A DNA stretch of 64,000 nucleotides from an uncultured Planctomycetales bacterium (GTDB lineage: Bacteria; Omnitrophota; Gorgyraeia; Zapsychrales; Fredricksoniimonadaceae): contig CAZACW010000001.1 of the NCBI GenBank assembly GCA_964483785.1, forward strand, positions 50,967-114,966, read 5' to 3'. The notes beneath the pieces were generated by a model that saw nothing but the letters and a program-made list of their open reading frames with translations, did no database searches and was not told where the DNA came from. The translations under genes and the position numbers were made by a program. Positions 42,001 through 63,876 of the stretch are shown in pieces; within the stretch, counting starts at the first letter, position 1, and each line of letters opens with the position of its first letter.

Positions 42001-45000
42001 TTCTTGGCAATCTCTTCGGGATTTAAACTGTCCCTGTTCTTTGCGAGATCACCTATCAATCTGGCCAAGGTATGAGATTGGGCTTCATAGTGAGCGATGG
42101 ACTCTTGCAGATATCTGGCGGACTCTAAAATATGCCCGAATTGAGCCAACAACATTCTGTTTTGTAAGAATTCGTTTAGACTGACTGTGTGGCCCAATTG
42201 CTGTTCAAGCCTTGCCTGACCTAATGCCAATGGTCTATCAAATTCGGCCCTGGAGAGACCATCTCTTCGGACCAAATCCTTGACCAGATCAAAATTGGCT
42301 TTCTGTTCTTTGGCATTGGACGAACTCGTCAAAAGATGCATGATCTTGTCAGCATATGATGCGTCAAATAACTTTACCAAAGCGTCTCTTAAATCCTGGT
42401 CTAAGCTTTCAGGGTCCCTTTGCCATGTATCCAAACCCTCCAGAACCTTGGCATGATCTGTGCCTGCCAAAAGATCCACTTCTCCCACCTTATAATGGGC
42501 CACCTCTTCATAATTAATCCGGTTTTTAAGCCATGTGATCTGATGGTCCAAGGCTTCCGCGTTTCCCCTGTCCCCTTCAGACAACTGTGATTGGGCTTGT
42601 TCTAAATGCCGCAAGGCTTGTTGATATCCAGCGATTCTTTCCGGCGCTGACAATTGGTTTTGTTTATAAATATCTGAGCTGTCGATCCCAAATAAACGTT
42701 GGGAAGTCCTGTCCCATCGGTTATTGACATTATCAATAAAGCTGTCCCAGTTTCCTTTATTCTCTGGTTTCGGTACAAACGCCGCCCCTTTGTCTGCGCC
42801 AAGATCGGTTATGCTTTGACCTTCTTGGGAAACTTGCGGGACCGGCATCAGTTTGCCTGTATAGGTAGACGGTTTTACTTGCGGAGCCACATCATGGGGA
42901 TGGGTGCCAAAGCCTAAAACACTGGTCCCATCTTCAGCGAATATGGGTTCCATGCGGGCCAATAACGGCCTTTGACCATTGGGCCGGTCAGGCATATCCA
43001 CAACACCCTGTAAGGTCAGGGTGGTGGGGGTCTTGGTGCCGTTAAGAATTCTATTTTGCAATAAACGGGAGCCGACTTCATAAAGTTCGTGGCCGCGCGC
43101 ATCGGTGTTGGTCACTATGGTGGTTTCTCTGGCGCCGTTTTCTCCTTCAGTGGTCACATACATACCATTAGTCCCAAGCATATTTTCAGCCATGGGAGTT
43201 GTGATGATCCTGAACGTATGGTCCACGCCATCTATGTTACGTGTATAAACCTTGACATCCGAATCAGGCATATAACTGGCCGCCTCAGCCGCGCCCAGTA
43301 CTCTTAATCCTAAGGCATCTTGACCAACATCAGCGGGTATGCCGCTGCTGGCGCCAACAACCACCACGCGCTGGTTACCAGGCAAAATAACTGGTAATGA
43401 AGAAGATGCAATGGACGGCCCCTCTGATAATGGAACTTTTAATCCTAAATCTCTTGTCGCCCAGCTTGTTAAATTCCCAACCGCAAGAAGGAAATTCCTA
43501 TCTGTATTAAAATTATCCAAGGCCCCAAAGGTCTGGTTCAAATGATTCTGGGCTGCCTCCGTATCGCCTCTGTTATAGGCAAGGATGGTTTCATTGAGAC
43601 CGTTCATGATATCAGGATTGCCGTTGGTCAATTCGTTCATTCTGCTGACAATGGGGATATTCTTCATGACTTCATAAAAATCTTCCTTGGCCAAGGCCCT
43701 GTAGGCTGGCAGACGGGTGAAGAGCGCATATCCTAATACTGTCTGAGCCGACGGTGAGATCACTGATCCATCTTCGCGGCCCATGGCGCCTGATGCAATA
43801 TGATCTGCTACATTAAGCAATCCATTTGATCCAGAAACAATGATCGGCATATAAACAATGTCCCTATAGGCGACCTGGGCCATGCCCGCATTTGTAACAG
43901 GCAAGCCATCTCTTGAAATATAGGCAACGTCCCTCATGCCTGGAAAACGATTGGCAATCAACTCTCCGGCGTTGAAAAATCTACCTAAAATTTGTCCTAC
44001 CCAATTCTGGCCTGAACCAAGTTCGACTGCCCCTCGAGTGTAAGCACCGGCATATCCCGTGGCTCTGGGCTGGACCTGAATTGCAGATAATAACGGCGCC
44101 ATCCAGACACCACTTTGCGGGGCGCTGATCATAGAAGCAAGCCAAGCCCTCTTACCTTCAGGACTCATTAGATCGATGATTTGATTATTTTGTTCCAATG
44201 CAAAAACAGGGATTTCCTTTTGCCCATATCTTGAATCCCTGCCAAGCCAATTATTGTCCATATATCTTTCTGCCCTGATCTCTAAACCCTTAGTCAATGC
44301 GCCCACCGGCATCATCATCCCTGACACGGCCGGCCATTTTAAAGCGCCCGAGGCAGAGGCATCCAATAAAATATCAGGATCTGCGCCCCATTTCTCAAAT
44401 TGATTCAATCCCATGCGCGGCATGGCCTTTAATACAGAGAAGCCAAACAAGCCTTCAACAGCGCCTGCGCCTGCTTGTATAATAGCTCTTGAAGGAGAAT
44501 AGGTTTCTCTCGTTTTCTTCCAAACAGATATGAAACCTGCAGGTTGATGATCTGTTAACAATTGCTGTTCATTGTGGTTGATCTCACTTGCTATATCAAT
44601 TGTTACATTTGCTGCCCCCATGGCTGTTGAAGAATAAGCAGCAGTTTTCACGTTTTCTAAGAATGATAATTTTTCAGTTGGTTTCCCATAACTTGTGGCG
44701 CGGGCCAGCCTGCGCAAGCCCAAACCTCCCAGTCCGCCGATTATCGCGCCTTCGGCAGCATCTGTAGTGAGTCTTGCCTTAGAAATTTGATCTGTTTGAT
44801 TGTCTCTCCACAATGAATACGCGTCATACGCAGGATTTGCAATGGCGCCGCCTACCATACCAACTCCTGAACGTAACCAGATATTGCTTTCAGCCAAAAC
44901 CTCTAAGGCTTGAAATCCAGAAGCGGCAGATAATAGGCCAAATCCCCCACCCCATTCGGCCCCAACACGCAGACCTTCCATAGCATGTTCACCAAAAGAT

Positions 45001-48000
45001 TTTCTATCTGATTCATTCTTTAACAAATCACCAATAGTTCCAGTTACACCAAAAATATTTGCCGCTAACATGGCTTGGTCACCAACCATATGTCCCATCC
45101 CACCTAATCTTTCTGGAGCCGACTTGGCAAATTCTCTAGCATACCGCATAGCGGATTCACCAAATATATTTCTTGCTTCCAATAACGGCACGGCCAGAGT
45201 CGCAGCGACAATGCCTGTGTCAAGCCAAGACATATCTCTTTCTGTCGCGGCATGATAAACCTTGCTTATACCGTAGGTTTCAGCCCCAATAGTCGCAGCG
45301 CCTATAATAGCCCTGCCAACGGAAGTATTTATAGCCCCCTCACCGATGATGCCTCTTGCTAAGCCGCCAATCATCCTTCCAGCCAAAGCTGGTGGAACTA
45401 ATCCAAATGCAGCCGCTTCACCAATAGATTGCCAAGTGATCCCAAAATCTCCTGTTCTTTCATAATTGATCAAACCCGCTGTCCCAACTGCGCCTAAATT
45501 AATACCTTCCCGTATAGCTAGTCCTTTTGCAAAATCACTGGTAAGGGCAGCTGCGATTGCTGATCTCGTTCCCCCCATAATCCCGACTAATTCTGCAGGC
45601 CGACCTGCTAATAAGGCCACCCCAGCCATATCACTAAAATTAATGGCGGAACCTGTATATAAACTAAATGCTCTTTTCCCGAATCCTCCACCCAATTCGG
45701 ATAAACCCAATGATACCCCTTCTCTAAATGCACCTCCTCCTAAACCAAATGTGGTTGTTGCAACAGCGGCGTTATAGACATAGTCCCCAAAACTTGCATT
45801 GCCATTAGAATTAGCGTATGTGAACGGAGCAGATATTAAGGTCCCTGCAGCGACCCTGAGTCCCAAATATGTGGCAGCTTCTACAAAAGCTTTTTTTGCG
45901 ATCATCCCGGCTATATTGCCTGCAAGCCCTGCTCCTCCTAAACCCATAGATAAACGTTCAAGTCCAGTTAATCCATTTTCATTAACTAAATCTTGATTAA
46001 TTGCCCTTACTTCAGCACGTCTTTGAAACTCCTCCGAACTGGATACATTAGCCAATCCTATGTCTTGTTTATGCAATTCCGAATCCATGGAATTATATCG
46101 AACAGTCATTTCCCCTTTATCATTAGGGACAATGACAGGTAATTTGTTGAGGCCCAAAAGTGTCGGGCTGTTTGAATAATCTTCCTGAGGATTGAGGGAT
46201 GGTCCATGAAATGGCTGAGTATGATATAAAGCACTGAAAAAATATGTAGCTTTCTTCGGATCTCCAAATATATCGTTCAATTCTTGGACAAGATTTCTAC
46301 GTTCAATCATGTCTGCGGATGAAGGTAAAGTATTAGTATCACTCATTTTCAATAATTTTGCGGCAATTTGTCTGGCTCTATTAAGGTCTATGTTGGTTGG
46401 GTTTTGTTCCTTAAGGGATTGGTTTCCTTGTGCCGGTGTTTCCTGGTTGTTTCTGGATAATTTTTGTCTGATCGCTGAGGCAATAGATTCCTGATTAATT
46501 AATGGGAAAGAAGACGCTGAGTCATGGAACTTTAAAGAATTGGAATCAAAATCAGTCTCGACTCTTGCGCTCCAGATTTTTCTATCTTTATCATCATAAA
46601 CAATCACTGTTCGCGTATCCTTATCATAATTTACTGCATAATTTTTCCCGTCAATGTTGATGATTTGAGATCCTTGGGGTGCGGAATACACATCACCACC
46701 GCCAGGGGCCGTAAACCCATAACGTCCGGCAGTGTTATACTCTATCATTTCGCCATTAGTCAACGTGCGGCCATTGGTCGTAAAAGATCCTTCGACTGTA
46801 TGAATGCCCCCGTTTATGTTCATCAAATTTGTCCCTGCGCTATTAAGCGTTCCGGTTTGGTTATTGATGTCAGCGCTCAATAATCCTTGGCCGCTGGAAA
46901 CATTGACCAATCCTTTATCGTCCAGGCTTGTGGACTTTAAAACCACCTCGCCTGGGGACGCCCACTTGACCGGTCCAATGCCGCCGCCTTCTTCCTTGCC
47001 CCACACCACATCGCCGTCAAACCCTAAACCATATCCGATCTTCATGCTGTCCATCCTGCGGTCAATATTGGGATTAAGACCAAATTCCTTAAACGGCATG
47101 AACCCAAAAACATTGGCTTCCTTGACCGCGGCCCCTTCGCCAACGCCTTTTTTGTCCCACGTGACCGCCGTTCCATGAATGGAACTTAAATCCCCATCAA
47201 ATGTCAGATGGGCATTGCCGGATGCATCGGTGGTTAAATGATTTACCAGGGCTGCATCGCGAACCATGATGTAACCGCCTGTTGAAGAATTTTCATTATT
47301 AATATTCACCTGTTGTCCTGACAACAAGGCAACGGCGGTGCCGTTGCCTTTGATGCCCATGGGCTGGCTGTGGTCCATGATGATATGGCCGCTGACGACA
47401 TGACCTGGGATTAACGGAGCATACCCGTTAGTGATTGTTTGATCTGTCACCGTTTGAAGGCCGGTTTCCGGTTCGCCCGGAGCTATTTGACCAAGCATGC
47501 GTATTGATTCAGGAGTATAAGCCTTAATGGGGGTGATGTTGCCGTTGATGATATGTTCCGCATTGTCCGCCAGCATCGCATGGTTGACATCAGGGGTCAG
47601 CATGTTATTGTTATTGGGATTCGGCGTCAAAAAGATGGATCCTTGGCCGTTGGTCTCAAACGCCCTTCCTCCCAAAGACATAGTGGTCCCTTTAGTGTCT
47701 CCCAGTAATCCTACATAATATTCTTGATAATCAGGATTGGGCGGTCCTTCCGGCATTTTCTCCCATGGCAGGGTGCCGTTCACGCCGATTCTTATAACCG
47801 GTGAATTGGTGATCTTAAGATAACCATTTTCTGGAGTTTCGATTTTGGTCACATGGTCCCTGAAGCCAATGCTTGAAACGGGGAGCTCTTCGCTATAACT
47901 TCCTTCAGGCGCATACCTGGTGACCTTGACAGGACCATCGACCTCGACATGGGTCAAGCCTGTATTCATGACCCAATTGCCGCTATTCATCATGGAAACG

Positions 48001-51000
48001 ACGCTCGTGTTCTTGTTGGGGACATTGTATACTGCTGTTTCGCCAGGGGCCTGGACGACTTGCGAGGGCAAGGAATTATCTTGATAAAGTTCCAACTTCA
48101 TGGTCCCTTGTCCAAACCTCATGCCATTAGGCCCACCAAAAGTCACATCACCGCTTCCAAATCTTATTTCTCTGCCATTAACATCCGTTCCAAAGGAAAC
48201 CATGTTTTCAGGATGAAACAGCGGAGGCTCCGGCTCACCGGCGGCGATACTGGGGCCCCAAGAATTATCCATAGGACTGACGAATTTGACAAACCCACCG
48301 GATTGCTGAACCAAGGAGTGGCCCGACTCTCCATATAAAATTCCGGGATTCAAGGACAGTTTTTGATCGGAAACTTCCATCAACGACAAAGGCAGTCTCT
48401 GGTTCTCGCCGGTTGCATCCAATTGTGCAACAGTCCCATATAATCGCGAAGCAATGGCATTTTCCATGCCACTGATATTGATTTCTTGACCTTTGGCTGG
48501 AGTACCCTTCTCTCCAAAATCATGAAAGGTCAAAATTGAGCCGACCACAGCCAATGCCTTCCCGTCCTGGGTGATCTGGGCCTGCATTTCTTTGGCTGGA
48601 CCCATAGGTACTCTTTCTCCGAAATCAGAAACTGATACGGCCTGATGTGTGAATTTAAGTGTTTGCTCCCCGTTGGGCGTGATAAACATTGAAAAAACAC
48701 CGTTCAAGCTCAAATAAGTCGTGACTGTGACATCAATCTTCGCTTCCTGACCGTTTTCAGGTTTAACCGGTGTCATCATGTCATAGATGCCGTTAAAACC
48801 ATTTTTGTTGATGGGCGTTAGTTTTGTCCCAAATTGATTGGCATCTACCTTAATGTCCTGCGATTGAATGACATATCCTTTATCCGAATCCGGCGCCCTA
48901 ACTTGCTGGTCCTTGGGGTTGATCAAAATAGTTTTGCCATTTTGATCGGTGGCAATAACGAAATTTCCTTGCTGGGTGGATATCTCGTTGACGTAATTGT
49001 ACCGGGCCTTGACACCGGCGCTGATTCCTTCCACATAACGGCTGACGCCATTGTCTGTCACTTCCGTATGGATGCCTCTGGCCTCATCATCTAAAATGTT
49101 TCTCATAAAGTTGGAAGGTTCAATCAACCCTACTCTTATGTTGCCGACCACAGGATCAGACGTTTTTCCAGTTAAAGTATTCACAAAGTTGCTGCCATTC
49201 CATTGAATATTAAAACCAAGTAGTGCGCCACTGCTGTCGTGATTCTCGCTCTCTTGCAATATACTCCATAATTTGGCTGTGCGCTGGGCATCCAGGCCAA
49301 GCCCTTCTTTTTCATATGCTTTGCTGGCAGAAAAATAAAGCGCCTCTGCCTGGACATAATCACCTTTATTTGAATAAACTTTGGCCAGTTGTTCATAAAT
49401 TAAACCAAGCTGCTTTGGAGCGGCTTTGCCGTCCGAAGATTCATCAGCATGGATGGCTTGCTCCAAGGCTTGCTGATTTTCATGAATTGAAAGCAGGGAA
49501 ACGGCCAATTGCTGGCTTTTGACAGCTTCGGCGCCGAACCCGGTCAGATTGGGGTTCAAATAAACTTGGTCCTTTACAGCTGGGAGCTTTGTCCCATCGG
49601 CAAATTCAACTTCCGCATTTGCGCCATAATCTTGCAGGTAGGTAAAATCCCTGACCTTACGCGCATCATTGTCAAAGATAGCCACGTGAGGTTCACCCAG
49701 TTTATTGATATAAACAATATTCCAATTCAATCCCATCAATTGAGCCAGTTGGGCAATCTGGGTATGGACATTCACGCAAGGACCTAATAAAGCTGTTTCT
49801 TCAAGTGTGGGTTGGATATTTCGTTTACCTAAATTATCCAGCCAATCACCTATGAGACCTTTGTCGCCATGGGTCATTTCCATGATGGCTTCAGCCAATT
49901 GGATAAAACCTAAATTACCGCTTTGATATAATTCTCTGGCCTTATCTCTGATGGGAGCAAAATTTGCTTCATTATCCGTGAGAGGCATATTATCTTTGGC
50001 ATAATCCACCAGCCATTGGGGCGCTGACCTTAATATCTTGTCATCTGTATTGGCATTTCTGATTTGTTCATAGCTGTACAATTGATTGCCAATATCAACG
50101 TAATTTGTCTTGCCGTCCAAGCTTTTCCAAATAATGCCTTTGGATGGGTCGAACACTTTCACCACCGTGATGGTTTGATTGGTCCCTGCCTGGGGTTCCT
50201 TCATTTCGATAACAGCATTCCTGAAATCCTGCTCCATGCTGCCGGAAAGATCGTAATTGACTCTGGACAAGAGGTTTTGTTTGTCCGCAATTCCTTTTTC
50301 ATTAATCATGGTGGTAGGAATAAGATCAGCCGGAACTGATCTCATCAAATCAATATCAGGTTTTCCAGAATTGGATTTGTCTGCTTTAGGGCCAAATTGC
50401 GGTCCTTCGCCGGGGCCATTGACGTAATAAAAATTTTGCAGACCATTGATGCTTAATTCACCCTGATATTTGCCGTCTTTTTCAAGAATCAAACCTGTGT
50501 AAGGCAAAAGTCCCAGGGACGTATCCGCCATGCGGTACATCTTGTTATCAGGAGCTAATTCTATGACGTTTGAAATGATTGGGACGAATTTACCGTCTTT
50601 AAGACCAGTTTGAAAATCAATTCTCTGCACACCGATCCCCGCCATGATGGCATTCGCCTTGGAAGTGCCCTTATCAGCAACATAAACATAATCATTGGGC
50701 AGGGCCATATAATGAAATCCGCCGCGCACCAACTGGATATTGCCAATATTATCGAAAGCCAAGGTGCTGCTATTATCCAACACAAGATTACCGTGCACGT
50801 CTCCCTTGGTCAGGTCCCTGATTCCCGCAATATTAAAATCATGGCCGCTGGCATTCTTGATGATTTCTCCCCTAAAATCCTGCTCCATGGAACCGCTCAG
50901 TCCGTATTGGACATGGGCCAAAATATTTTGATGGTCAACAGAACCATCGGACTGGATGGTGCCGGTAGGATGATCGATTGGCGGCATGGTTGTAAGATCA

Positions 51001-54000
51001 CCGCCGCCTGATTTTAAACTGATATATTTTTGCACCGCATTGAGGATTTGAGGATTTTGATTGACGAACTTGTTAATATCGGCGTCAGACCTGCCTTCCA
51101 TGGAACCATAATCAACATGATTAGGATCGCCTGCAGACAAATCTCGATATTGTCTCCACAATTGTTTGACCTGTTCAGCGAAGGTATGCGGAGAAACCTT
51201 GGAGCCGTCCACAAAAGACGCTCCCTTGATGTCCTTTAAGCCGACCGCTCCTCCCTCTAAGGTCAAATTAGCATAATCATGCAGGCCCGTGAGAGTATCA
51301 AACTTACGGTAAAGAGGGTTGCTTTGGTCCAGTTCTTGGACGCCGGTGGTGACACTGGCGTATTTGCCGTCCTGCAGTTTGACTGAGGTAAAGTCGATTT
51401 CCTTGACCCCCACGCCAGCTGCCATGGGTTTTCCGTCAGATGTGCCGGTCAATCCGATAAAGTGATAATCATCGCTGTTGGCTCTATAAAACCCCGTGCC
51501 GGAAACATAATCGACATTACCACTGCGATCGTTGAAGCCCATGGTGCTGCCATCGGTAAGCCCAAGAAAACTGTGAATGACTCCACTGCCGCTTAAGTCC
51601 CTTACGCCGGCCAAATTAAAATCTCCGCCAGTGGCATTTTGGATGACCTCCCCCCTAAAATCCTGTTCCGCGCTTCCGGTGAAGTTACTACCCAGGTTCA
51701 AAATCAAATTTTGGTTCGTAATTGTACTGTCAGGCCGTACAATCCCGGTCGGAGTGGTGTTTACCGCGGCTGATGTTTCGGTTGCAGGCGCCGCAGAAGC
51801 ATTGGCCTGCTGTCTGGCTTCTTCCGCGGCATTGTGCGGAGCATTCTGCGCACCCATAATATAGCTTTGATCTTTTAAATTTCTCGCCACAAGTTGGGAA
51901 GTGCCTGTTGAGTTGACAACGATGCCGGAATCAACTCGGGCCCAGTTGCTGCCGCCATCCACCGATACATCATTGAGCCCTTGTACGGCAATGGGCATGC
52001 CGTTTTTAAAATCAAGCCTTGTGAATCTAGCAATCACATCTTGGCCGATGCTACTATACGTATCGGCATAGGCCTGGGTTCCATTCACACCATGGTAACT
52101 TGATATAGGAAAGACCGCGGCCCCTTTATCCGCAACAGAGAAACCGTTTTGATCAATGGTCACCTGACCAAGCTCCCTTAAAGGTTGATTGTTTTGGGAT
52201 GAGGCCACCGCATCGAAAACAGCATATTGCTGTTTCCCATTTGAATCCAAAACCGGTTTTCCGGTTTGGGGATTGATGGTCGGCTGGATTTCAGCGATAT
52301 ATTCGTTAATGCCCCCGGCAAATGAAATTTTCAAGTTATGGTACATGGGTGAAAACGAAATGCCTTGGTTTTCAAGGGCCTGGGAGCCTGATATGTTATT
52401 AGGAATGTTTGCAATCAGCGCCTGACCATTGGTATTGTCTTGGGATACGGTGCCTTCATAAATATGGCTATTGCCGATTTGGATCGTATTTTCAAAGGAT
52501 CTAAAGGGCATTGAGCTCGGAGAAGACGATGCGTCTCCATTTGGTATTTGGGTCTGTCCCGGGACCCAGGCCGCGCGGCTTCCTGATGCGGCAAGGATAT
52601 CTGTAAACATGGAGGTGCTGTACTTATATTCCCCAGCCGCCTTTGTCGCCAAATCCAACCGCGTTCCCGTGACGTTTTGGCTGAAGGGGGTATATTCGCC
52701 ATTAAGCTGTAAACCTTGAGAGCCCTGTCCATACGTCAAACCATTTAATTTTTCATTGTTATTGGCATCAATGAGATAGGTGGGATTGTTAAATTTCATG
52801 GACATCAAGTCTGTCCCCTCCAGCAGTCCCACGCGATTGACGTTCAAAAACGCTCCTTGATAAAGTCCATTGACGCCTTGCTGTCCAAAGCTTACAAAGG
52901 AGCCTGTTTGGGTTGAATAATCCCCTTTTTCCGTGCCAAAAATGGATTGATCTGTCCCAATCGGAATCAAGTTGGGTTTTTTAGGATTTGTTCCGACATC
53001 CCCAATAAAAGCCATGGCTCCAATACCAAAATTGTTATCCTGGACGGTGACCTTCCCATCGGCGGGTGTGGCAAGATTAAATCCGCTGACCACATATTCC
53101 AAATTACCATGTAATCTGTCAGCCTGAGCATTGGGAGTGGAATAAATGTTGTAGTTGGCGTTTGATAAAAATTTGATTTCACTGGACTTATCGGTTCCGC
53201 CGGATACAAATTTCCAGGCGTCCCCCACCCCGGCAAAATAAGGAGAAGCGTTGCCTCCATTCAAGTCCCAGGTTATGCCTGCTGATGTTATTGGGAATGA
53301 AAAACTTTGATTTCCATTTGTTGTTGTTACCTTTCCATTTGCGCTATATATCATCGGAACCATGACAGGGCCATTGGGCGTCATCACAGTATAAACAGAA
53401 GTATTTCCGATTAAAGTGCTGTTACCGGATTTGACATCATTCGTTTGCAAACTGCTCTGTCCTAAGGTGCTTTCACCAAAGGGCGTCACTGCTGTCGAGT
53501 TTGATAATGGTGTCAACGCACCTGGCTTTCTGGCGTCCGCATCATTCGCTTGGACTAAATACATTAAATTGTGGCCTCCTAAGAATCCCGGGAGGGCGCT
53601 TACTTGAACATAGGTTTGCCCTGGTTCGGTCGGAGTGACCTCATGCTCATCTTCAGGCCGGCCTGAGCCATTGCCGTCAGTTCTTACAACCCCGGCATTG
53701 ATGAATTTTTGACGAATCGATGATCCATAATCAGGGTTAGGATTGTGAAGTTGAAAATCAACCCATTGAGTATATGACATAGGTTCGGCACCCATGCCCT
53801 GGCTATTGAGATCATGCTGTGCTGCAGCGTAAATTTGATATTTTTGAGGTGATAAGTACTGCTGCTTTAATATATCGACCTCGGTTATGTTGTCCGGGAC
53901 AGCGTCTGACATTGAAACTGATCCATCCGGATTGGTGGTTAACGCACGCGGCTTAAAAAGATCGGCATATTGTGCGCCAGTTGATGGTATTGAACTGACT

Positions 54001-57000
54001 CCTAAGATTCGGTCCAACTCGTTATCCTGAGTGGCTAACTGAGTCGGAGGCTCTGATAAAGGATTGCTCTCGACTTCTGTTTTATTGATTCTTGCCGCAT
54101 CGGGGTTCGGCGCATTGATGGGAGCCGGAACTACAATGTCCGGCCTTCCGGGGATTGCCGTGATGGAGCCTGGAGGGTATGAGATTTCCACTCCACCCGG
54201 TTTTGCTGCTTCAACGAAAGGGGCCGACATTATCGTTCTCGTAATGGTGGTACCAGGATTGCCACTGGTCGTCATTGTGGATCCAGTGTTGGCAGATGTC
54301 GCTGCAAGCGATATTGAATTGCTCGTTAAATTTTGTGAGGCCAAATCTGTAGACAACAACGGCAAAAAAGTGCCAAGCAGGCTTGATCCGCCCGTATAAG
54401 CCGAAGCTACGGCTGATGGACTGAATGGATTTAAAGAGCTTGTGGCATAGTCAAGGTCTGATCTTCCACCAATTGGAAGTGAAGCTGTGGATATAACGCT
54501 GTCAGGAGATCTCATCAGACTACTGGCTTCTTCTTGGGTCATGGACTTTCCTGTCAAATACTGTCTCATGGCCATCGCACCACTTAGAAAATCAGACTGG
54601 TCAATCATCAATGTATTGGGGGTGACGACCCTCAACATAACAGGCGCTCCGATTTGTATTTTCTTAATGGCGTTGATATGAGGTGGCGGTGGCGGCGGAT
54701 GCAGGATATTTTTTGCCCGCCGATCCAGAAAAACTTCATTGAGCGAGGCCGGCATGCCCCTGCGGTTAAAATTCACAACGCCTCCGCGTCCTTGGCGATA
54801 TCCGGCCAAGACGCCGTTGAGTAAAAGGGCATCAAAGGTCAAGGCCTGATACCCTGTAAGATTATTGATGGTCACATTGCGAAAATCACCGATTAACACC
54901 GCATTGGGAGAGGTGAAATCTGAAATTTCGATATTGGCACGCTGAGTGCCTTGGGTGACAATAGTTGTGTCATGCGTATCTAAACCAACGGTTAACGTCC
55001 TGCGGTCAGGATTGCCCTGAGGTGACGCACCGCCTCTTTGTCCCTTGTCAAGGACGGTCTGGTTTAATATGAGCGGCGCATTCCCGCCATTGATCAAAAG
55101 ATACGGCGAGCCGCCTGCTTCAAGGCCCGCGCCAAGACCATTGGTTGAATCAAAAACTTTGCCCGGCCCCAAGTCCAGAGCGCCAATGGAAAAGCTTAAG
55201 AAGGTCTTCTTGCCCTGTGGAGATTCTACGACGGACAAGTTGATGTCCTTCAAAATGGAGCTCATGTCTTTGGGAATATTTTTGACGCCCTCAAATTGTG
55301 AGCCGGCCACATCCAAATCCACAAATTGCGTGGCAAGATCGCCGGTGGGCTTATCAATGACCACGCCGTCGCGGCCGATAGAAAATGTCTTGCCCTGCGG
55401 GATCCATGCGCCGTTTCTTTCCGCAGCCGTCCTGATCCTGCCTGTTGTAACATAGTTATTGCCATTCCAATACCCTTGAACCAAGGTGGTGAATGACGGC
55501 AAGGACCCGCCCACAACAGTCAATTTTTCATTGGTGAACAAAGGTTTGGTGGAAAGGCCAAGACCCTGTTGGCTGTCGATCGTTATGTCCGCGACATGAT
55601 CGCCTTTGGAGACACCCAGGTAATACAGATCCAGACCCCCTCCGAGGGGAATGTCCTGGATCGTGCGGTTGGCCATGGGAAACTTGCGCGGCTTGATGCC
55701 TGTATTTTTGCTGGGGCTGTTTTGAATCTCCTGGCCGGCGGAGTTGGGATCAATATTGCCTTCCTTGGGGCCGATGATGATATGCCCTGCCTGGTTTGTA
55801 AAAATATTCACGTAATTTTTCGTGATCCCTAATAAGGCAGGCACAAATGCATTGGCCCCGGTGGAGATAATGTAAAGATCCTGGGAGCTGGGCGTTAACG
55901 CCTTGTCCAATACCCAGCCCGTGGATTCATTGCCGCTGGCGGTCCATCCGGGCAATCTACCCTTCGGGGCCGCGATGCCCGCGCCAATGTCCCCATAAGC
56001 CGAGAACGTGATTTCATTGCCATAGGCCCCTTTGTCCGTAAATGAAGTGGCATTTTCATAAGTGCGCGGCCGTCCGGCGTAGCTCATGGGCATGATGCTG
56101 TTTTTGTCTCCGCCCCTGATCCCTGCGCCCCACATCCATTTCCCGCCAAAATAAATGCCTTGATTTTGGACCTTCTTCGTAATCGGTGTGGCGGCAATCT
56201 GGTCCGGATCAAACCACCAGGCAGCCCCTTTGGAAAAATTATTGCCCGTGATTTTACCGTTGTAAACATACCCCGGTTGCGAAGATGCATTAACAAGATC
56301 AAGATTGGCAAGATACCATTCACTTATGCCGTTAAGTACGCTGTTGGTCTGGACCCCATTGATGTCCGTGATATAACCAAGCTTTCCATGGGCCGTTGAA
56401 CTGATCGGCGCAGGCGTTGATTCACCCCCCTTGGTCGGCTTCATTAAAGTATCAAAGGCCCCCCCGTTGGCGACCAGAACAATGCCGTTATCGCCGTTGC
56501 TCAGACGCCGGACCGCGGCCCCGGTGATGGCGGCGGCCAGGGCCCTGCCTTGCTGGGCCTCCACGCGCATGCCTTGTCCAATAAGTTCCGCATAAGCGGC
56601 GACTTCCTTGTCTCCGCCCAAACCATTAGGACGAATGGCCGCCAACCCTGATACCTTGGCAGAATAGTACGACGGATCCTCGGGAGATCCAACCCCATTG
56701 GCGCTGGGTGATCCAAGCACATTGGCGCTAAAGCCCACCCATCCGCGGGTCGGGACCCCATTGATAAGATATCTATAACCATCGACCTTCATCGCCTTGC
56801 CGCTGAGCGTTATGCCGCTGCAAGCGCCGGATGCCTCGGCCTTGCATATGCCTAATTCCATTTGGTTATTGGCCCCTTTTTGGGCGCCGTATTGAAAATT
56901 GGGTAAAAAGTACATCAGCGTTTGCCTGACGGAATCATCCATGTAATAAGGATAGGTCGACTTTCGAAAATCTTGTGTGATGCCGGAATTGGCAGAATTA

Positions 57001-60000
57001 GCATCCGTATAAATGGGCACAGGCTCATTATTCTGGTCGAGATTGACGATGGCCCCTTCTCCCGGAGCCAGGGACCCTGATTTGCCGTAAGCTGATAACG
57101 TCACATAAGAGTTCTTTGAAGTCTCGTCTGTCCAAGTATAATCTTTGGCCTTGTCGAGTTTATAATACGTCGGCTGGGCAAACGGCAGGGCAAAGGCCAC
57201 AACTCCGGTCAAATTGGTGGCCGCGACGATATCAGCCTGTTCCAATTGATTGCTCAAATAATTGATATTGTATCCCTGCTCGCCGATGGAATGGGATTGA
57301 AACAAGGAAAGGACAAATTGGTCATGCAAGTCTTGATCGGAAGGCGCCGGTGTGAAGGTCAGGATTCCCGGTGAAATAAGCCCGCCGATGGTGTGGCCGT
57401 CGCCGGATTTAAATTGCGTGATGACATTGGCCCTGTTCTTGTTCATGGCGTCCCATTGGCTGTCCAGGGAAGCCGCCCAATTAGCGGTGATACCGCTCAT
57501 CTGGTCCAAGGTATCTGATAAATTGACAAAATTTTCGATCGTGGGATTTCTTGTATATTCATCGATCAAAGGGACTCCGTTGATGCCGGCAAAAAATGGA
57601 ATTATAGTCGAAGGCGCCGGTGATCCTGTCATAGTCGTCAACGTAGCTAATCCATTGTTTGTTCCGTTTAAAGCCACGGACGGACTTAATCCTGAGACCG
57701 GAACACCTAAGGCCAGTTGAAATCTGTTCCACCAGGTATTGTTGGGGGCCTGGACATTTTCTCCATTGACAGAGGCCTGGATACCCGCTGACAAAACGCT
57801 TGAGGCGGCCATGACAATGGCCTGATATTGGGCCAATTGATAGGTGTAATTATAGGAATAGCCCGGATTGTTGGCCGCCTTCTCAGGATCGTACCTGCCC
57901 ACAATGCTGTTGGCCATCAGGCCCAGGCCAAATCCGATCAGGGCCTTGGTCAGGGCCGGGGCCATTTCTTTGAGCAAGCGATTACTGGACTCAGGCTGGG
58001 GCGGGCCGTAATATTTGTCGTATTGATACAGGGCGAAAGTTGTGGCAAGGCCGCTGACCCCGAGTCCGATCGCGCTGGAAAGCCCATTATTGGCTTTGAC
58101 GCCGGCTGACGAAGCAAGTAATCTTGCCCCCATGCCGGCCAATTGGCCGGCGAGCATAGGCAGAAGAGACGAGGCCGCGCTGTTCAAAATATTTTGCAGG
58201 ACTGTTGAATTGGCCTGCGCGATGACCCTGTCGATGGTCCTGTCGATGATACTGCCCGGAGTATTTCCAGCGCCGTTGAAAACGATCTTGCCTTCTGGCG
58301 TGATGCTTATATTGGAAGCATTAAGAGAGACACCGGCTTTGGCTGCTTGGGCGACTACGTATTGAATCATCCCGTTTTGATAAATACCCTTGGAAGCGTT
58401 GAGGGCCGCGTTCTGGGCATCAGCAGGTGAGAGTCCTTGGGCCACGGCATTGGTATAGGCTGCTTGGGCCGTTGAGTTGTGATCGATAAAGGTCGATGCC
58501 GCTTCCTCTGGTGTAATGCTGGCGGCGACAGTGCTGTTAGAATTAACGACGGCCGTGGCGACCCTTGAATCCATCGCCACCGCACCGGTTGGGTCAAGGG
58601 GCGGCAAAGGCAAATTGGGATCAAGGGATGGCGCCGCTGCTTCGGGATGCAAGGAGTAATAGGCGTTGACCGCGGTCGTCGCGCAACTTGGGCATTGGTT
58701 CGATAAAACCATGGCCTGGGCCTTGCCGACCTCCAGCTGAACATCGCTGTTGATAGCAGCCTGTCCTGCTTGCTGCGCCATGGTATGGGACAAGATGCCT
58801 TCAATCCCCTTTTCCACGATATCAACTGTTACTGAAGCCACCTTGGTGGCCACCACATCCGCAATAACCAATATCCCCTGCGAGAGGATCTGCGCCGTAT
58901 CACTGCATGGCTTGCCCGGCGGACAGAATGCATTGTTGACTACCTTGACCAATTCAAGTTCAACCACGCCCTTGACCGCGCCAATCACCAGACCTTTGGC
59001 AAAGCGGCCGGCAAAGGTGCTGAAGAAGCCGCTGCTGGCTGTTGATGCGGCGGGCGGCGGTGTCGGTGTTGGAGGAGGGGTTGAAGCCCCCGCCCCTTGG
59101 GCCCCTCCAGCCGCGGCCTGCTGGGCGTTGGTAGATGTATTGCTGGTGCCGCTTAAAAAATCACCGATTGGTTTAATGATATTGGTTTGGATCCAATTCC
59201 ATGCCTGGTCAAAAGCGTTTTGGATGGGCGTGATGATATTGGTGTTGATCCAGGACCCGATGCTGTTGGAAGCATTTTGAAGAGGCGCGACGATATTGTT
59301 TGCTATCCATGACCCCACATTGCCCGCCACCGAGGCCCCGGTCTCTATAGATCCCGCGGCTTCTGTGCCGGAGACTGCAGTGTCCCAAGTGCCGCTGTCT
59401 ACGTACCCGCTGCTGTCCACACTGCCGGTCTGTTCAAACGTCACTGAGTCGCCCCAACTGCCTGTATCAACATATCCCCCACCGCCCCCGCTTGCACCGC
59501 CGACGCCGCCCAACGCTACGCTAGCCGCGACTGTAATCGCCGTAGACAAAATAAAGGCCTCATCCGGACTGCAGGCCTTGTTCATCACGCAGATGGTGGC
59601 CAAATTCTGCAAAAGCTGGCTCAGGGTAAGGATAAAAATGGCTTTGACCATCCCGACCACGCAGCCGGCAGGCCCGCCCATTAAACAGCCTATGACGATC
59701 GAGACAACTATCATCACCAGCTGCAGTGCGATCTGACTGCCGGACATCAGCCCCGGCAGGCTTTGGGAAAGGTCGCGCCATTTATCGCCCCAGACAAAGG
59801 CTTGCAGAGCTTCCGGAACTTTTTGGTATTGGATTCTTGTTTTTGCATCAACGGCGCTGAATACAAAACCATCCGCCCTTTTAATAAAATCCTTCGCATC
59901 CACAATGCGCGGATAATCCAGGTCCGTGTAATAGACCTTGCCGCCCGCGGCTTTTTCCACATTCACAAAATGTTCATCTTTAAAGTGCGCGATGAAAGGT

Positions 60001-61045: not shown

Positions 61046-61155
61046 AGCTAAACAATTACAATAGATTAACGTCAGTTCTACATAATGATAACGCTGTCTT
61101 CGAAAAGCAAGGTCGTGTTCAACGTACCATTTGGCCCTGTCCTCGTGACCTGTTT

Positions 61156-61353: not shown

Positions 61354-62565
61354 ATGTGGTATATTTATTGTATGTCCACCATTGATCAATTGCTTGAATA
61401 TGACCGCCTTGCCAAAAAGGACGGTCAAAAATATGATAAAAAAAGGACTCTTTACGATATAATTACGAAAGATTCCGGAGACCATTTTATCGGCATAGTC
61501 GGCCCCAGAGGGGCTGGAAAAACGATCATTCTTAAGCAATTGGCCCTTGCCCATACCAACTCTTTTTATCTTTCTCTTGATACTCTGGAAGGAAATCTCT
61601 TCGATCTTGTTAAAACCCTGCAAGAAACGCTGCGCATTGAATTGTTCCTTTTGGATGAAGTCCATTTTTATCCTTCCCTTGAGGCTGATCTCAAAAAAAT
61701 CTATGATCTTTTGAAGGTCAAGATCATTTTCACAAGTTCAACAGCTTTAGGCATGTATAAATCGAATTATGATTTATCACGGCGCGTGCTGCTTAAAGCG
61801 CTTTACCCTTTTACATTAAGAGAATACGCGGATTTTAAGTACGATCAAAAGTTTGGCACCTTGGGCCTTAAGGATTTTATTGACGGCAGTTTCCCTCACG
61901 ACATTCTCCGGGTCGGTGAACATTTTATTCCCTATATTCAAGGAGGCCTCATGCCCTTTGCCCTGCGTGAGCCCCAGCCGTTGGTCTTATTAAAAAACAT
62001 CCTTGATACCATTATCCATAAGGACATCCCGCGCATCGCCAGGCTCGTCACCGATGAATTGGATAAAATCGAACAGCTCATCCGCTTTATAGGCCTTTCC
62101 GGAATTGATGGCATCAACTATTCGACCGTGGCGCATAATCTCCATATTTCAAAATATAAAGCCGCGCAATACATTTCGCTTTTAGAAAAAGCCTTTGTTT
62201 TACATCAGGTTTTTCCAAAAGGCAGTAATGTTTTAAAAGAGCCCAAGGTCGTCATGGCCTTGCCCTACCGGCTTTTGTATCGAAATTTTAGCGATGCTTT
62301 GGGAGGTTTAAGGGAAGATTTCTTTGTCGGGACCTTTAAGGCCCTGGGTCAAGAGGTCTTTTATCTTAAATCTTTTCGCGGCAGCAAGACCCCTGATTAC
62401 CTGCTCCAGGACCCGCAGGACATTGTCTTTGAAGTCGGCGGGAAGGGTAAGGGGAAAAGTCAATTTAAAGGCATCGACGTCTGCAAAAAAATCATTCTCT
62501 CCGATGGGTTTGATGTGACAAATACAAAAAAACCGCTGTTTATGCTGGGTTTGCTGGGGTCTTAA
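61354..62565 (+). CDS. AAA family ATPase / ATP-binding protein (AAA_14 + DUF4143 type)
   Basis: 403-aa ORF in the track. Walker A GIVGPRGAGKTIIL and Walker B LFLLDEVH; overall layout typical of the widespread DUF4143 ATPase family. An alternative start MSTIDQ lies at 61372. Confidence 0.85.
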   Translation: MWYIYCMSTIDQLLEYDRLAKKDGQKYDKKRTLYDIITKDSGDHFIGIVGPRGAGKTIILKQLALAHTNSFYLSLDTLEGNLFDLVKTLQETLRIELFLLDEVHFYPSLEADLKKIYDLLKVKIIFTSSTALGMYKSNYDLSRRVLLKALYPFTLREYADFKYDQKFGTLGLKDFIDGSFPHDILRVGEHFIPYIQGGLMPFALREPQPLVLLKNILDTIIHKDIPRIARLVTDELDKIEQLIRFIGLSGIDGINYSTVAHNLHISKYKAAQYISLLEKAFVLHQVFPKGSNVLKEPKVVMALPYRLLYRNFSDALGGLREDFFVGTFKALGQEVFYLKSFRGSKTPDYLLQDPQDIVFEVGGKGKGKSQFKGIDVCKKIILSDGFDVTNTKKPLFMLGLLGS

Positions 62566-62905: not shown

Positions 62906-62966
62906 CCATCACAACCCCGGAGGTTGTGGTGGTTTAACCATCACAACCCCCGGGGTTGTGATGGTT
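62906..62966 (-). terminator. two tandem copies of the same palindromic hairpin, at and just past the stop codon of the TadC-like gene
   Basis: ccatcacaaccccggaggttgtggtgg (62906-62932) and aaccatcacaacccccggggttgtgatggtt (62936-62966). The second overlaps the TAA (plus tta at 62965-62967). Confidence 0.5.
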
Positions 62967-63876
62967 AATGTCCGAGATTTTTGATGGGATTGTTCTGGAA
63001 GAAGTCCAGAAAGACCGGGCCGGCGACCAGGATGGCCACCACCGGAAAGATGCAGAACAACAGCGGCACCAGCATTTTTAAAGGGGCTTTCAGGGCCATT
63101 TCTTCACCCCGGCGAAAGCGCGCTTCACGCATGTCCTCGGAAAGAATGTTCAAGGCCTCGATCACCGAGGTCCCCATGCGGTCCGCCTGGATCAGGGTGC
63201 GGGAAAAGGTGGACAAATCCGGCAGTTCATAGCGCTTGGCCAAATCCCTGAGCGCGTCGCGCCGGGGCTTGCCCACGTTGATCTCCTGCATCATGTTGCG
63301 CAGCTCCTCAATAATCACCGTGGGGCTCGACTTCTCCACCACATATTTGAGCGCCATCATGAAATCCAGCCCCGCGTTGACGCAAAGGCCCAACAGGTCC
63401 ACGGTGTCCGGCAGATGCTTTAGAATTTCCGACTTGATTTTCTTCACCCTGGACTGCAGCCACATCTCCGGGATCATATAGCCCCCGGCAAAACTCATCA
63501 GCCCCCCAAAAAGCAGGAATTCGCCCTTGGTGTCGACTTTAAAGGCCACCGCCAAAAAGACCACCACCAAAATCTCCTTGACCAGGAAAAACTCCTCGAC
63601 GGTCAGCCTGGACTGGGCCATGCGCAGGTCCCAATAAATGCGCCGTCCGATGGGTGTGGCGGCCAGGGGCTTGTTGATCACCCCCACCTTGCCCAAGACC
63701 ATGAGCACGGCATCCAGCGGGCCTCTGATCCTGCCATCGGCCCTGGGCTTGAGCCCTGACATGGGATCATCCGGGCCCATCTGCAGTTTGGGCCGGTTGT
63801 CCAAAATTTCCACCGGCCAAAACCCCAGGATCAGGGCAAACCCCGCGAAAAACGCCAATAATAAAGGAAGCAGCAT
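62965..63876 (-). CDS. type II secretion system F family protein (Tad/Flp pilus assembly TadB/TadC-like inner-membrane platform protein)
   Basis: 303-aa ORF in the track. It has an N-terminal TM segment, a central soluble region (...GLDFMMALKYVVEKSSPTVIIEELRNMMQEINVGKPRRDALRDLAKRYELPDLSTFSRTLIQADRMGTSVIEALNILSEDMRE...) and C-terminal TM helices. The ATG at 63876..63874 lies 1 nt downstream of the stop (TGA, plus tca 63878-63880) of the upstream ORF (tgaTatg), suggesting translational coupling. Confidence 0.8.
   Translation of the reverse strand: MLLPLLLAFFAGFALILGFWPVEILDNRPKLQMGPDDPMSGLKPRADGRIRGPLDAVLMVLGKVGVINKPLAATPIGRRIYWDLRMAQSRLTVEEFFLVKEILVVVFLAVAFKVDTKGEFLLFGGLMSFAGGYMIPEMWLQSRVKKIKSEILKHLPDTVDLLGLCVNAGLDFMMALKYVVEKSSPTVIIEELRNMMQEINVGKPRRDALRDLAKRYELPDLSTFSRTLIQADRMGTSVIEALNILSEDMREARFRRGEEMALKAPLKMLVPLLFCIFPVVAILVAGPVFLDFFQNNPIKNLGH

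What the first reader, a model, noticed from the sequence alone, without database searches (positions are those of the whole stretch)
59645..60593. N-terminus: membrane anchor plus a peptidase C39-like cysteine protease domain
The start of the giant protein reads MKVIALVVLAAFIP (anchor). It is followed by NVLNCGVYALKDVLQEHGIKRSLSELSV and HFVNVEKAAGGKVYYTDLDYP, matching the Cys and His/Asp motifs of C39 bacteriocin-leader peptidases, and then by TM helices. C39 domains usually cleave double-glycine leaders at the N-terminus of ABC exporters. Here one heads a giant protein, which suggests self-processing or processing of a partner peptide.
Basis: partly seen in the sequence, partly recalled or inferred. 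Interest (0 to 1): 0.6.

Follow-up and report, generated by a model that had tools for sequence, protein, structure and literature searches.

The report
C39 protease head of giant protein
The giant (>20,000 amino acid) Omnitrophota-type protein in this window starts with an export signal followed by a real, apparently active C39 cysteine protease domain, a feature already reported for this class of giant proteins, so it is a solid but not new finding.

Summary
A minus-strand ORF is open from window position 60695 to the left edge (at least 20,231 aa). Its N-terminus carries a Pfam Peptidase_C39 domain (39.1 bits against a cut-off of 22), and a high-confidence AF2 model of it matches PCAT1, LahT150 and ComA peptidase domains. 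Cys157, His242 and Asp258 align with ComA Cys17, His96 and Asp112, and are kept in about 98%, 98% and 76% (89% with Glu) of 160-169 related domains.

Corrections:
- The hydrophobic "anchor" looks like a Sec signal peptide with a conserved extended n-region and an [S/A]-x-A site. The protease is therefore predicted to face the periplasm, unlike ABC-transporter C39 domains.
- The canonical oxyanion Gln is absent.
- There is no ABC transporter module.
- Double-glycine leader motifs are neither enriched nor conserved downstream.

The only other Pfam module in the ORF is a SecA-like motor. A T2SSF gene lies upstream in at least 21 of 31 related loci fetched from GTDB genomes, nearly all labelled Omnitrophota. 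West-Roberts et al. 2023 already describe N-terminal C39 domains next to signal peptides in Omnitrophota giant proteins. This is a new member of a known kind, and its substrate is unknown.

The parts
3..60695 (-). Giant ORF, at least 20,231 codons. The start codon is at 60693-60695 and the 3' end lies beyond the window.
   Evidence: There is no stop in frame. Pfam finds only C39 and a SecA module across the whole length.
60588..60695 (-). aa 1-36. Conserved N-terminal tail, the extended n-region of the signal. It carries the motif F-x-S-R-F-x-x-W-[IM]-[KR].
Evidence: It is conserved in homologues. K+R averages 2.9 on this flank against 0.6 on the other flank.
60534..60587 (-). aa 37-54. Signal-peptide-like h- and c-region: VIALVVLAAFI-P-NQV-SWA, with a putative signal peptidase I site after Ala54.
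   Evidence: Kyte-Doolittle score is 1.89. Across relatives, P48 occurs in 153/157, [S/A]52 in 153/157 and A54 in 154/157. Cleavage itself is inferred.
60453..60533 (-). aa 55-81. Conserved F-[GN]-Y-N-P-x-V-L motif followed by a variable linker.
   Evidence: Alignments. pLDDT is below 50 for aa 64-78.
60255..60452 (-). aa 82-147. Family-specific alpha/beta pre-domain packed on the C39 core.
   Evidence: AF2 pLDDT is above 90 apart from the aa 108-127 loop at about 70. Foldseek TMq is only 0.45-0.47 while TMt is 0.70-0.73.
59820..60254 (-). aa 148-292. C39 peptidase core with Cys157 (60225-60227), His242 (59970-59972) and Asp258 (59922-59924). It has a conserved 15-aa insertion at aa 187-201.
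   Evidence: Pfam PF03412. hhalign to ComA gives C17/H96/D112 equivalence. Foldseek matches 6mpz, 4ry2, 3k8u and 5xe8.
59748..59810 (-). aa 296-316. Conserved juxtamembrane motif QAFVWGDKW...LPGL.
   Evidence: W302, G303, K305 and W306 each occur in 27-28 of 29 loci. AF2 confidence is low here.
59496..59741 (-). aa 319-400. Three hydrophobic helices. A strong TM at about 322-340 is followed by a hairpin at 344-362 and 380-398 whose turn carries a conserved C-x5-C (aa 369-375, 59571-59591).
   Evidence: Hydropathy. AF2 helices 319-371 and 377-400. CX5C conservation is 22/23 and 19/23.
58818..59003 (-). aa 565-626. Second hydrophobic hairpin with a C-x5-C turn (C591/C597). It repeats the motif of aa 344-398.
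   Evidence: It is conserved in 13/23 relatives.
27675..30875 (-). aa 9941-11007. SecA-like motor module inside the same ORF.
   Evidence: SecA_DEAD 1.8e-67, P-loop_SecA 3.4e-28, SecA_SW 4.1e-20 and SecA_PP_bind 8.7e-11.
62965..63876 (-). Upstream gene on the same strand encoding a T2SSF (GspF/TadB-like) membrane protein. It is a syntenic partner of the giant gene.
   Evidence: Pfam T2SSF 4.5e-18. It lies upstream on the same strand in at least 21 of 31 related loci.
61354..62565 (+). Divergently transcribed AAA_14/DUF4143 ATPase gene inserted between the T2SSF gene and the giant gene. It is not a constant part of the locus.
   Evidence: Pfam. It is present only in the window, L026 (74% identity), L001 and weakly in L016.

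Best explanation
This is the conserved head module of an Omnitrophota giant membrane protein of the SecA-containing, 'archaeovorin'-like type.

**Proposed architecture.** A Sec-type signal peptide with an unusually long, conserved n-region carries a roughly 265-aa segment across the cytoplasmic membrane. That segment consists of a family-specific pre-domain plus a C39 papain-fold peptidase. The next, strongly hydrophobic helix (aa ~322-340) tethers it to the outer face. Two hairpins with C-x5-C turns follow.

**Proposed activity.** The peptidase has an intact Cys157/His242/Asp258 triad and is most likely catalytically active. It would act on polypeptides that emerge on the periplasmic side. 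These could be exported segments of the giant protein itself, or proteins handled by the adjacent T2SS/Tad-like machinery. This is analogous to FapD, the Sec-exported periplasmic C39 protease required for Fap amyloid secretion. Its recognition site is probably not a canonical double-glycine leader.

**Shown:** domain identity, fold, triad conservation, N-terminal position, the signal-like features, the synteny and the lack of an ABC module.

**Inferred:** signal cleavage, periplasmic location, catalytic activity and the substrate.
For: - **Domain identity.** Pfam C39 scores above the gathering cut-off. AF2 domain model has pLDDT 92.4 and pTM 0.89. The top 24 Foldseek PDB hits are all C39 or C39-like domains, with TMt 0.57-0.73 (0.65-0.73 for the full-length isolated domain chains) and rmsd 2.6-3.4 A to LahT150.
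- **Catalytic residues.** hhalign places C157, H242 and D258 on ComA C17, H96 and D112. Across 178 relatives (195 domains), Cys is kept in 165/169, His in 160/163, and the third position is Asp in 122 and Glu in 20 of 160.
- **Selection.** The C39 core is the most conserved stretch of the first 2,350 aa, with column identity 0.67-0.70 against 0-0.35 downstream.
- **Orientation.** K+R averages 2.9 before the h-region and 0.6 after it. The h-region is short, followed by Pro and an [S/A]-x-A motif kept in about 97% of relatives.
- **N-terminal position.** The module starts at a median residue 39 in 148 relatives.
- **No ABC module.** Pfam finds no ABC domains in 20,231 aa. A SecA-like module is present.
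- **Synteny.** A T2SSF gene lies upstream in at least 21 of 31 related loci fetched from GTDB genomes, nearly all labelled Omnitrophota.
- **Literature.** N-terminal C39 domains near predicted signal peptides in Omnitrophota giant proteins are described in 10.1101/2023.11.21.568195. A PF03412 architecture cluster is reported in 10.64898/2026.06.07.730766. FapD is a precedent for an active periplasmic C39 (PMC5557850).
Against: - No dedicated signal-peptide or topology predictor could be run. Sidedness rests on the positive-inside rule, motif conservation and Kyte-Doolittle hydropathy.
- A conserved n-region is unexpected for a peptide that is simply cleaved off.
- The residue aligned with the oxyanion-hole Gln (ComA Gln11) is Arg151 here and varies across the family. 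Catalytic efficiency or mechanism may therefore differ.
- No substrate or cleavage site was identified. GG-type motifs are neither enriched nor conserved.
- A thiol protease in an oxidising periplasm needs its Cys kept reduced.
- Weak hydrophobic segments at aa 871-972 leave the topology of the downstream part uncertain.
Confidence: 0.6

Rival explanations
1. Cytoplasmic, PCAT-like leader peptidase. The C39 domain would sit on the cytoplasmic face, as in ComA, PCAT1 and LahT. It would remove leaders from cargo, or from the giant protein itself, just before export through a translocon formed by the giant protein's own TM segments and SecA-like motor.
For: All biochemically characterised transporter-linked C39 domains are cytoplasmic and are followed directly by TM helices, as is the case here. 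The same ORF carries its own translocation ATPase module. TIGR03796 (an NHLP-type exporter) is the only NCBIfam model hit, at a weak E 4.6e-05.
Against: Charge bias and the conserved [S/A]-x-A site after a short h-region argue that the domain is exported. There is no ABC TMD or NBD. No double-glycine leader signature is enriched or conserved. Published predictions place signal peptides next to these C39 domains.
Confidence: 0.15
2. Non-catalytic C39-like domain (CLD) that tethers or chaperones an unfolded polypeptide, as in HlyB, rather than cutting it.
For: The HlyB CLD (3zua, 7sgr) and the Vibrio CLD 3b79 are among the structural matches. The oxyanion Gln is missing. No cleavage motif was found.
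Against: CLDs are defined by loss of the catalytic Cys. Here Cys is kept in 165/169 and His in 160/163 related domains, and the core is the most conserved part of the N-terminal 2,350 aa.
Confidence: 0.07
3. Prey-directed papain-like toxin or effector domain, delivered to or acting on the prey cell during predation.
For: A papain-like cysteine protease toxin (9l5u_B) is a structural neighbour, with TMt 0.69-0.70. Omnitrophota giant proteins are proposed to act in predation.
Against: The domain lies between a signal peptide and membrane helices at the N-terminus. That fits a tethered house-keeping or processing enzyme, not the C-terminal, variable, immunity-paired layout of polymorphic toxins. 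It is the most conserved part of the region rather than a variable one. No adjacent immunity-like gene was seen in the 3.3 kb upstream.
Confidence: 0.05

Closest known systems
N-terminal C39 domains of Omnitrophota giant proteins (West-Roberts et al. 2023, bioRxiv 10.1101/2023.11.21.568195; PF03412 architecture cluster in 10.64898/2026.06.07.730766)
   Same: A giant ORF with a C39 domain close to the N-terminus next to a signal peptide, a divergent SecA DEAD module, many TM segments, and neighbouring type II secretion/pilus genes.
   Different: Nothing essential differs. This copy is only 61-68% identical over the head module to its nearest relatives among the fetched GTDB loci. In the 20,231 aa visible here, Pfam finds none of the glycosyl-transferase, hydrolase or methyltransferase domains listed for 'archaeovorins'.
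Peptidase domains of PCAT/AMS ABC exporters (ComA, PCAT1, LahT150; MEROPS C39, Pfam PF03412)
   Same: The fold, the Cys/His/Asp triad in the same order and spacing (His+16 = Asp), and TM helices directly after the domain.
   Different: - There is no ABC TMD or NBD.
- It is preceded by a signal peptide and a 66-aa pre-domain.
- It has a 15-aa conserved insertion.
- The Gln of the oxyanion hole is replaced (Arg151, variable in the family).
- It is predicted to be periplasmic rather than cytoplasmic.
- No double-glycine leader substrate is evident.
FapD, the periplasmic C39 protease of the Pseudomonas Fap amyloid secretion system (Rouse et al. 2017, PMC5557850)
   Same: A C39-type protease exported by a Sec signal peptide. 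It is active outside the cytoplasm, is linked to a secretion process, and has a substrate lacking a canonical C39 leader.
   Different: FapD is a small stand-alone soluble protein in the fap operon. Here the domain is fused to, and membrane-tethered by, a protein of more than 20,000 aa. Sequence relatedness to FapD was not tested.
HlyB-type C39-like domain (CLD)
   Same: The same fold at the N-terminus of a secretion-related membrane protein.
   Different: CLDs lack the catalytic Cys. This family keeps it.
Extended signal peptide region (ESPR) of very large autotransporter and two-partner secreted proteins
   Same: A conserved N-terminal extension in front of an otherwise ordinary signal peptide on a very large exported protein. 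This is a functional analogy drawn from general knowledge.
   Different: There is no Pfam ESPR hit and the motif is different (F-x-S-R-F-x-x-W-x-[KR]).

Membership tests
Peptidase C39 (Pfam PF03412 / MEROPS C39) | Profile HMM score above the curated gathering threshold | tested here: met
   39.1 bits against 22, E 8.1e-10, aa 156-258.
Peptidase C39 (Pfam PF03412 / MEROPS C39) | Papain-like alpha+beta fold superposable on solved C39 domains | tested here: met
   AF2 pLDDT is 92.4. Foldseek probability is 1.00 with TMt 0.70-0.73 to 6mpz, 3k8u and 5xe9, and rmsd 2.6-3.8 A.
Peptidase C39 (Pfam PF03412 / MEROPS C39) | Catalytic Cys at the start of the first core helix, with His and Asp in the beta-sheet half | tested here: met
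   C157, H242 and D258 align to ComA C17, H96 and D112. They are conserved in 165/169, 160/163 and 122(+20 Glu)/160 domains. The spatial geometry could not be measured because no coordinates were available.
Peptidase C39 (Pfam PF03412 / MEROPS C39) | Oxyanion-hole Gln about 6 residues before the Cys | tested here: not met
   The position aligned with ComA Gln11 is Arg151, and it is E/D/G/N/S in relatives. A conserved Asn156 (113/169) or His/Asn153 might substitute, but this was not testable here.
Peptidase C39 (Pfam PF03412 / MEROPS C39) | Cleaves after a double-glycine (GG/GA/GS) leader | tested here: inconclusive
   There is no enrichment in the giant protein and no conserved site in the first 2,350 aa. 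The substrate is unknown and biochemistry is needed.
PCAT/AMS bifunctional ABC exporter | C39 domain fused to an ABC transmembrane domain and nucleotide-binding domain | tested here: not met
   No ABC_membrane or ABC_tran hit anywhere in 20,231 aa.
PCAT/AMS bifunctional ABC exporter | Peptidase domain on the cytoplasmic face | tested here: inconclusive
   Charge bias and a conserved SPase-type site predict export. No dedicated predictor or experiment was available.
HlyB-type C39-like domain (CLD) | Catalytic Cys lost | tested here: not met
   Cys157 is present and kept in 98% of relatives.
Omnitrophota giant proteins with an N-terminal C39 (West-Roberts 2023) | ORF of tens of thousands of codons | tested here: met
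   At least 20,231 codons, open to the window edge.
Omnitrophota giant proteins with an N-terminal C39 (West-Roberts 2023) | C39 domain near the N-terminus next to a signal peptide | tested here: met
.
Omnitrophota giant proteins with an N-terminal C39 (West-Roberts 2023) | Divergent SecA DEAD module and multiple TM segments in the same ORF | tested here: met
   A SecA module lies at aa 9941-11007. There are 26-28 hydrophobic segments at Kyte-Doolittle 1.6 or above.
Omnitrophota giant proteins with an N-terminal C39 (West-Roberts 2023) | Neighbouring type II secretion/pilus genes; Omnitrophota origin | tested here: met
   A T2SSF gene lies upstream here and in at least 21 related loci. Of the 31 related GTDB loci, 20 are labelled Omnitrophota or Omnitrophica; the other 11 carry 'Planctomycetales' (9), 'Elusimicrobia' (1) or plain 'bacterium' (1) bin labels. 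The window's own taxon is inferred.
Omnitrophota giant proteins with an N-terminal C39 (West-Roberts 2023) | 'Archaeovorin' enzyme set (glycosyl transferases/hydrolases, methyltransferases, NUDIX) | tested here: not met
   Pfam detects none at E<=1e-3 in the part of the ORF inside the window. The ORF is incomplete, so the sub-type is left open.
ESPR extended signal peptide (PF13018) | Profile match to ESPR | tested here: not met
   No hit at E<=10 (run on the protein read from the Met at 60593) or E<=1e-3 (run from the true start at 60695). The resemblance is functional only.

The most novel reading that the evidence does not exclude
The head module is a periplasm-facing, membrane-tethered C39 protease with a non-canonical oxyanion hole and a non-double-glycine specificity. 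It would cut the exported parts of its own giant protein, or of neighbouring secretion/pilus substrates, into separate functional pieces. That would be a bacterial 'polyprotein' strategy carrying its own maturation protease. The conserved extended signal n-region would act as a dedicated targeting tag for the protein's internal SecA-like motor.
Probability: 0.2. Interest if true: 0.7.

Novelty: new member of a known kind. Interest (0 to 1): 0.3.

Why it matters
Whether Omnitrophota giant proteins (20,000 to more than 100,000 aa) work as single chains or are cut into pieces is an open question. The N-terminal C39 domain is the main candidate for the cutting enzyme.

This window adds no new kind of element, but it sharpens the picture:
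- The catalytic triad is under strong conservation across hundreds of clusters.
- The domain most likely works outside the cytoplasm, like FapD and unlike the ABC-exporter peptidases.
- Canonical double-glycine sites are not the target.

Together these define a small, expressible fragment (aa 55-318) with which the processing hypothesis could be tested directly.

Tried and rejected
- **Direct sequence search of PDB.** phmmer with the N-terminal 300 aa gave only chance hits. The family profile reached LahT150 only weakly (E 0.0026). The fold search and hhalign were needed.
- **Double-glycine leader search.** The giant protein shows no enrichment. There is no conserved G-[GAS] site in an alignment of 23 orthologous 2,350-aa N-terminal parts, except one inside a domain helix.
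- **Extra C39 copies.** None were found in this protein (Pfam; family HMM with --max), although some relatives have 2-3 copies.
- **ABC transporter module.** None found.
- **Rfam over the whole window.** Nothing reached the threshold.
- **The search for related loci with the family alignment.** It failed because no stretch was conserved enough. The single protein worked.
- **Tat signal.** Considered because of the S-R-F motif, but rejected. There is a single Arg, not a twin-arginine.
- **AAA_14/DUF4143 gene as a partner.** Rejected. It is present in only a few related loci.
Full report
**What is at the coordinates**

The region 59645-60593 lies on the minus strand inside one enormous reading frame. 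The frame has no stop all the way to the left edge of the window. Only four other ORFs of 200 aa or more exist in the 64 kb window.

The frame is open a further 34 codons upstream, to an ATG at 60695 that follows an in-frame stop by two codons. The extra residues are MGQNLENNPQNPNIFPAQIPPADSSPFVSRFNQW. They are conserved in homologues that start M[S/G/D]QNLEN and carry PFVSRFxxW in front of the hydrophobic stretch.

A sigma-70-like TTTGCA-18-TATAAT lies about 50 nt upstream of this ATG. I therefore number from 60695, giving an ORF of at least 20,231 codons that is incomplete at its 3' end.

**Is it a C39 domain?**

Yes, on four lines of evidence.

- **Profile match.** Pfam PF03412 matches aa 156-258 with 39.1 bits (gathering 22, E 8.1e-10). 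It stays significant in a 5,000-aa query. NCBIfam gives only a weak hit to the peptidase end of an NHLP-type exporter.
- **Fold.** An AF2 model of aa 1-406 has pLDDT above 90 for aa 80-300 apart from one loop at about aa 111-120. A domain-only model (aa 78-300) has pLDDT 92.4 and pTM 0.89.
- **Structural matches.** The first 24 Foldseek hits in the PDB are all C39 or C39-like domains. They include LahT150 (6mpz; TMt 0.72-0.73, rmsd 2.6-3.4 A), PCAT1, ComA (3k8u, 5xe8/9), the HlyB and Vibrio CLDs, and a papain-like toxin 9l5u.
- **Catalytic residues.** A profile-profile alignment with ComA, whose sequence I verified as identical to PDB 8hf7, puts Cys157, His242 and Asp258 on the catalytic Cys17, His96 and Asp112. 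It puts Pro150 on Pro10.

The same alignment shows three departures from the canonical domain:

- Gln11 of the oxyanion hole aligns with Arg151, a position that varies in the family.
- There is a conserved 15-residue insertion at aa 187-201.
- A 66-residue alpha/beta pre-domain (aa 82-147) precedes the core. It has no PDB counterpart, which is why TMq is only about 0.46.

**How conserved is it, and where does it occur?**

- **Family size.** A word-indexed search found 18, and with a profile 49, homologues. All are short fragments, and the few named ones are labelled Candidatus Omnitrophica/Omnitrophota, apart from one labelled Deltaproteobacteria. An exhaustive profile search of 1.84 billion representatives found 821 clusters at E<=1e-3 and 182 at E<=1e-30.
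- **Position in the protein.** Among the 178 sequences retrieved, the module that includes the hydrophobic leader starts at a median residue 39 in 148 cases. It is therefore an N-terminal head module, often on proteins of thousands of residues.
- **Catalytic residues across the family.** Cys is present in 165/169 domains and His in 160/163. The third residue is Asp in 122 and Glu in 20 of 160.
- **Genomic relatives.** A scan of GTDB species genomes gave 31 loci. Twenty are labelled Omnitrophota or Omnitrophica, and the other 11 carry 'Planctomycetales' (9), 'Elusimicrobia' (1) or plain 'bacterium' (1) bin labels. The best is 68% identical.
- **ORF continuation.** In nearly all of these loci the ORF stays open to the end of the fetched 6 kb downstream.
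- **Loci my first regex missed.** L018 and L026 also have Cys, His and Asp. L031 starts after the Cys position but keeps His and Asp.
- **Relative conservation.** In an alignment of 23 orthologous 2,350-aa N-terminal parts, the head module is by far the best conserved stretch. Column identity is 0.67-0.70 over aa 151-250 and falls to 0-0.35 afterwards.

**Topology**

The hydrophobic stretch has a core of only 11 residues (VIALVVLAAFI). It is followed by Pro48 and then S52-W53-A54 before Phe55.

Across the family, Pro48 is kept in 153/157 sequences, [S/A] at -3 in 153/157 and Ala at -1 in 154/157. This is the signal peptidase I pattern.

K+R average 2.9 in the 17 residues before the core and 0.6 in the 17 after. 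By the positive-inside rule, and by its form, this is a Sec signal peptide with an extended conserved n-region, or at the least an N-in signal anchor.

The C39 domain is thus predicted to be exported. It is followed by a conserved juxtamembrane motif (QAFVWGDKW...LPGL), then the strongest hydrophobic helix (aa 322-340, Kyte-Doolittle 2.59). After that comes a weaker helical hairpin whose turn carries a conserved C-x5-C.

If the strong helix is the only odd crossing before the next hydrophobic cluster at about aa 13,400, the long stretch that follows, including the SecA-like ATPase, is cytoplasmic. That is coherent with an ATP-dependent motor. Weak hydrophobic segments at aa 871-972 keep this uncertain. 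I could not run a dedicated predictor, so the sidedness is an inference.

**Rest of the protein and neighbourhood**

Pfam finds only one other module in the 20,231 aa. It is a SecA-like motor at aa 9941-11007 (SecA_DEAD 1.8e-67 plus the P-loop, PP-bind and wing/scaffold domains). There is no ABC transporter domain and no second C39 copy.

Upstream on the same strand lies a T2SSF gene. It holds the same position in at least 21 of the related loci.

The AAA_14/DUF4143 gene between the two is a sporadic insertion.

**Substrate question**

- GG occurs 124 times against 140.7 +/- 11.3 in shuffles.
- G[GAS] occurs 356 times against 412.6 +/- 18.3.
- The full leader-like pattern occurs 2 times against 1.0 +/- 1.0.
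- The only G-[GAS] pair conserved among orthologues in the first 2,350 aa is inside helix 82-97 of the folded domain.

No small leader-peptide gene is visible in the 3.3 kb upstream.

**Comparison with what is known**

West-Roberts et al. [quoted passage not shown] A 2026 preprint lists a PF03412 group as one of the two largest architecture clusters of long Omnitrophota proteins.

The best mechanistic precedent for an exported C39 enzyme is FapD. It has a Sec signal peptide, is active in the periplasm, needs its catalytic Cys for Fap secretion, and has a substrate without a canonical C39 leader.

**Verdict**

- The C39 identification is supported.
- Membership of the PCAT exporter family is rejected: there is no ABC module, and the predicted sidedness is the opposite.
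- A HlyB-like inactive domain is rejected, because the Cys is conserved.
- The most likely working model is a periplasm-facing, membrane-tethered, active C39 protease heading an Omnitrophota giant protein. Its substrate is unknown.
- Interest is modest, because the feature is already documented.

This analysis adds the following details:

- the true start and the extended signal;
- triad statistics over about 180 relatives;
- the missing oxyanion Gln;
- the pre-domain and the 15-aa insertion;
- the negative double-glycine test;
- the T2SSF synteny.

Noticed in passing
whole giant ORF, window 3-60695 (-); Cys pairs at aa 369/375, 591/597, 668/671 and 1284/1292: The protein is extremely depleted in cysteine, with 13 Cys in 20,231 aa and 11 of them in the first 1,292 aa. 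Apart from the catalytic Cys157 they come in close pairs. Homologues show the same pattern, with 3-10 Cys per about 2,350 aa, mostly paired.
   Followed up: partly
window 59496-59669 (aa 343-400) and 58818-59003 (aa 565-626), minus strand: A motif is repeated: a hydrophobic helix, then C-x5-C-S-x-[DT], then a second hydrophobic helix (ATICVMNKACSPDEAFILSTAI and NAFCPPGKPCSDTAQILSQGIL). The first copy is conserved in about 20 of 23 relatives and the second in 13 of 23. These may be disulfide-stapled or metal-binding hairpin tips.
   Followed up: partly
window 61153-61259 (intergenic, between the AAA_14 gene and the giant gene): There are four to five copies of a 17-19 nt unit, TTCAGA[A/T]TGGAAATTAA, spaced 17, 17 and 32 nt apart. 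They include a near-perfect 22-nt-arm palindrome at 61215-61259 that also scores as a terminator-like hairpin. It looks like an operator array or a bidirectional terminator.
   Followed up: partly
window about 60955-61026, minus strand (5' of the giant gene): A stable imperfect hairpin (GTCATCCTGAGGCGAAGCCGAAGGATC...GATTCTTCGTCGCTACGCTCCTCAGAATGAC) folds at -37 kcal/mol with z = -3.8 against shuffles. One arm (CGCTCCTCAGAATGAC) also occurs about 400 nt upstream of the giant gene in related locus L005. There is no Rfam match.
   Followed up: partly
window 27675-30875 (-), aa 9941-11007 of the giant ORF: A complete SecA-like motor (DEAD, preprotein-binding, P-loop and wing/scaffold domains) is embedded about 10,000 residues into the same ORF. 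It is the only other Pfam-recognisable module in 20,231 aa.
   Followed up: partly
window 61354-62565 (+): An AAA_14 + DUF4143 ATPase gene sits between the T2SSF gene and the giant gene, transcribed divergently. It is found at this place only in a few related loci (L026 at 74% identity, L001, and weakly L016). It therefore looks like a sporadic insertion rather than part of the system.
   Followed up: yes
related proteins P0092, P0150, P0157, P0162, P0170 (not in the window): Some relatives carry two or three C39 domains at internal positions (for example around aa 600, 1,500-1,900) of proteins 2,000-3,200 aa long. Pfam recognises nothing else in the three that were scanned (P0092, P0150, P0157). 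In these copies the third catalytic residue is usually Glu.
   Followed up: partly
window 3-5350 (-), aa about 18,449-20,004 of the giant ORF: A dense cluster of at least 15 strongly hydrophobic segments lies at the end of the visible ORF. It suggests a polytopic membrane domain, and it has no Pfam match.
   Followed up: no
locus L001 (ENA contig_433) and L014: In long-read assemblies the orthologous giant gene is broken into many short called genes by apparent frameshifts. This explains why all database homologues of the head module are short 'proteins' of 600 aa or less.
   Followed up: partly
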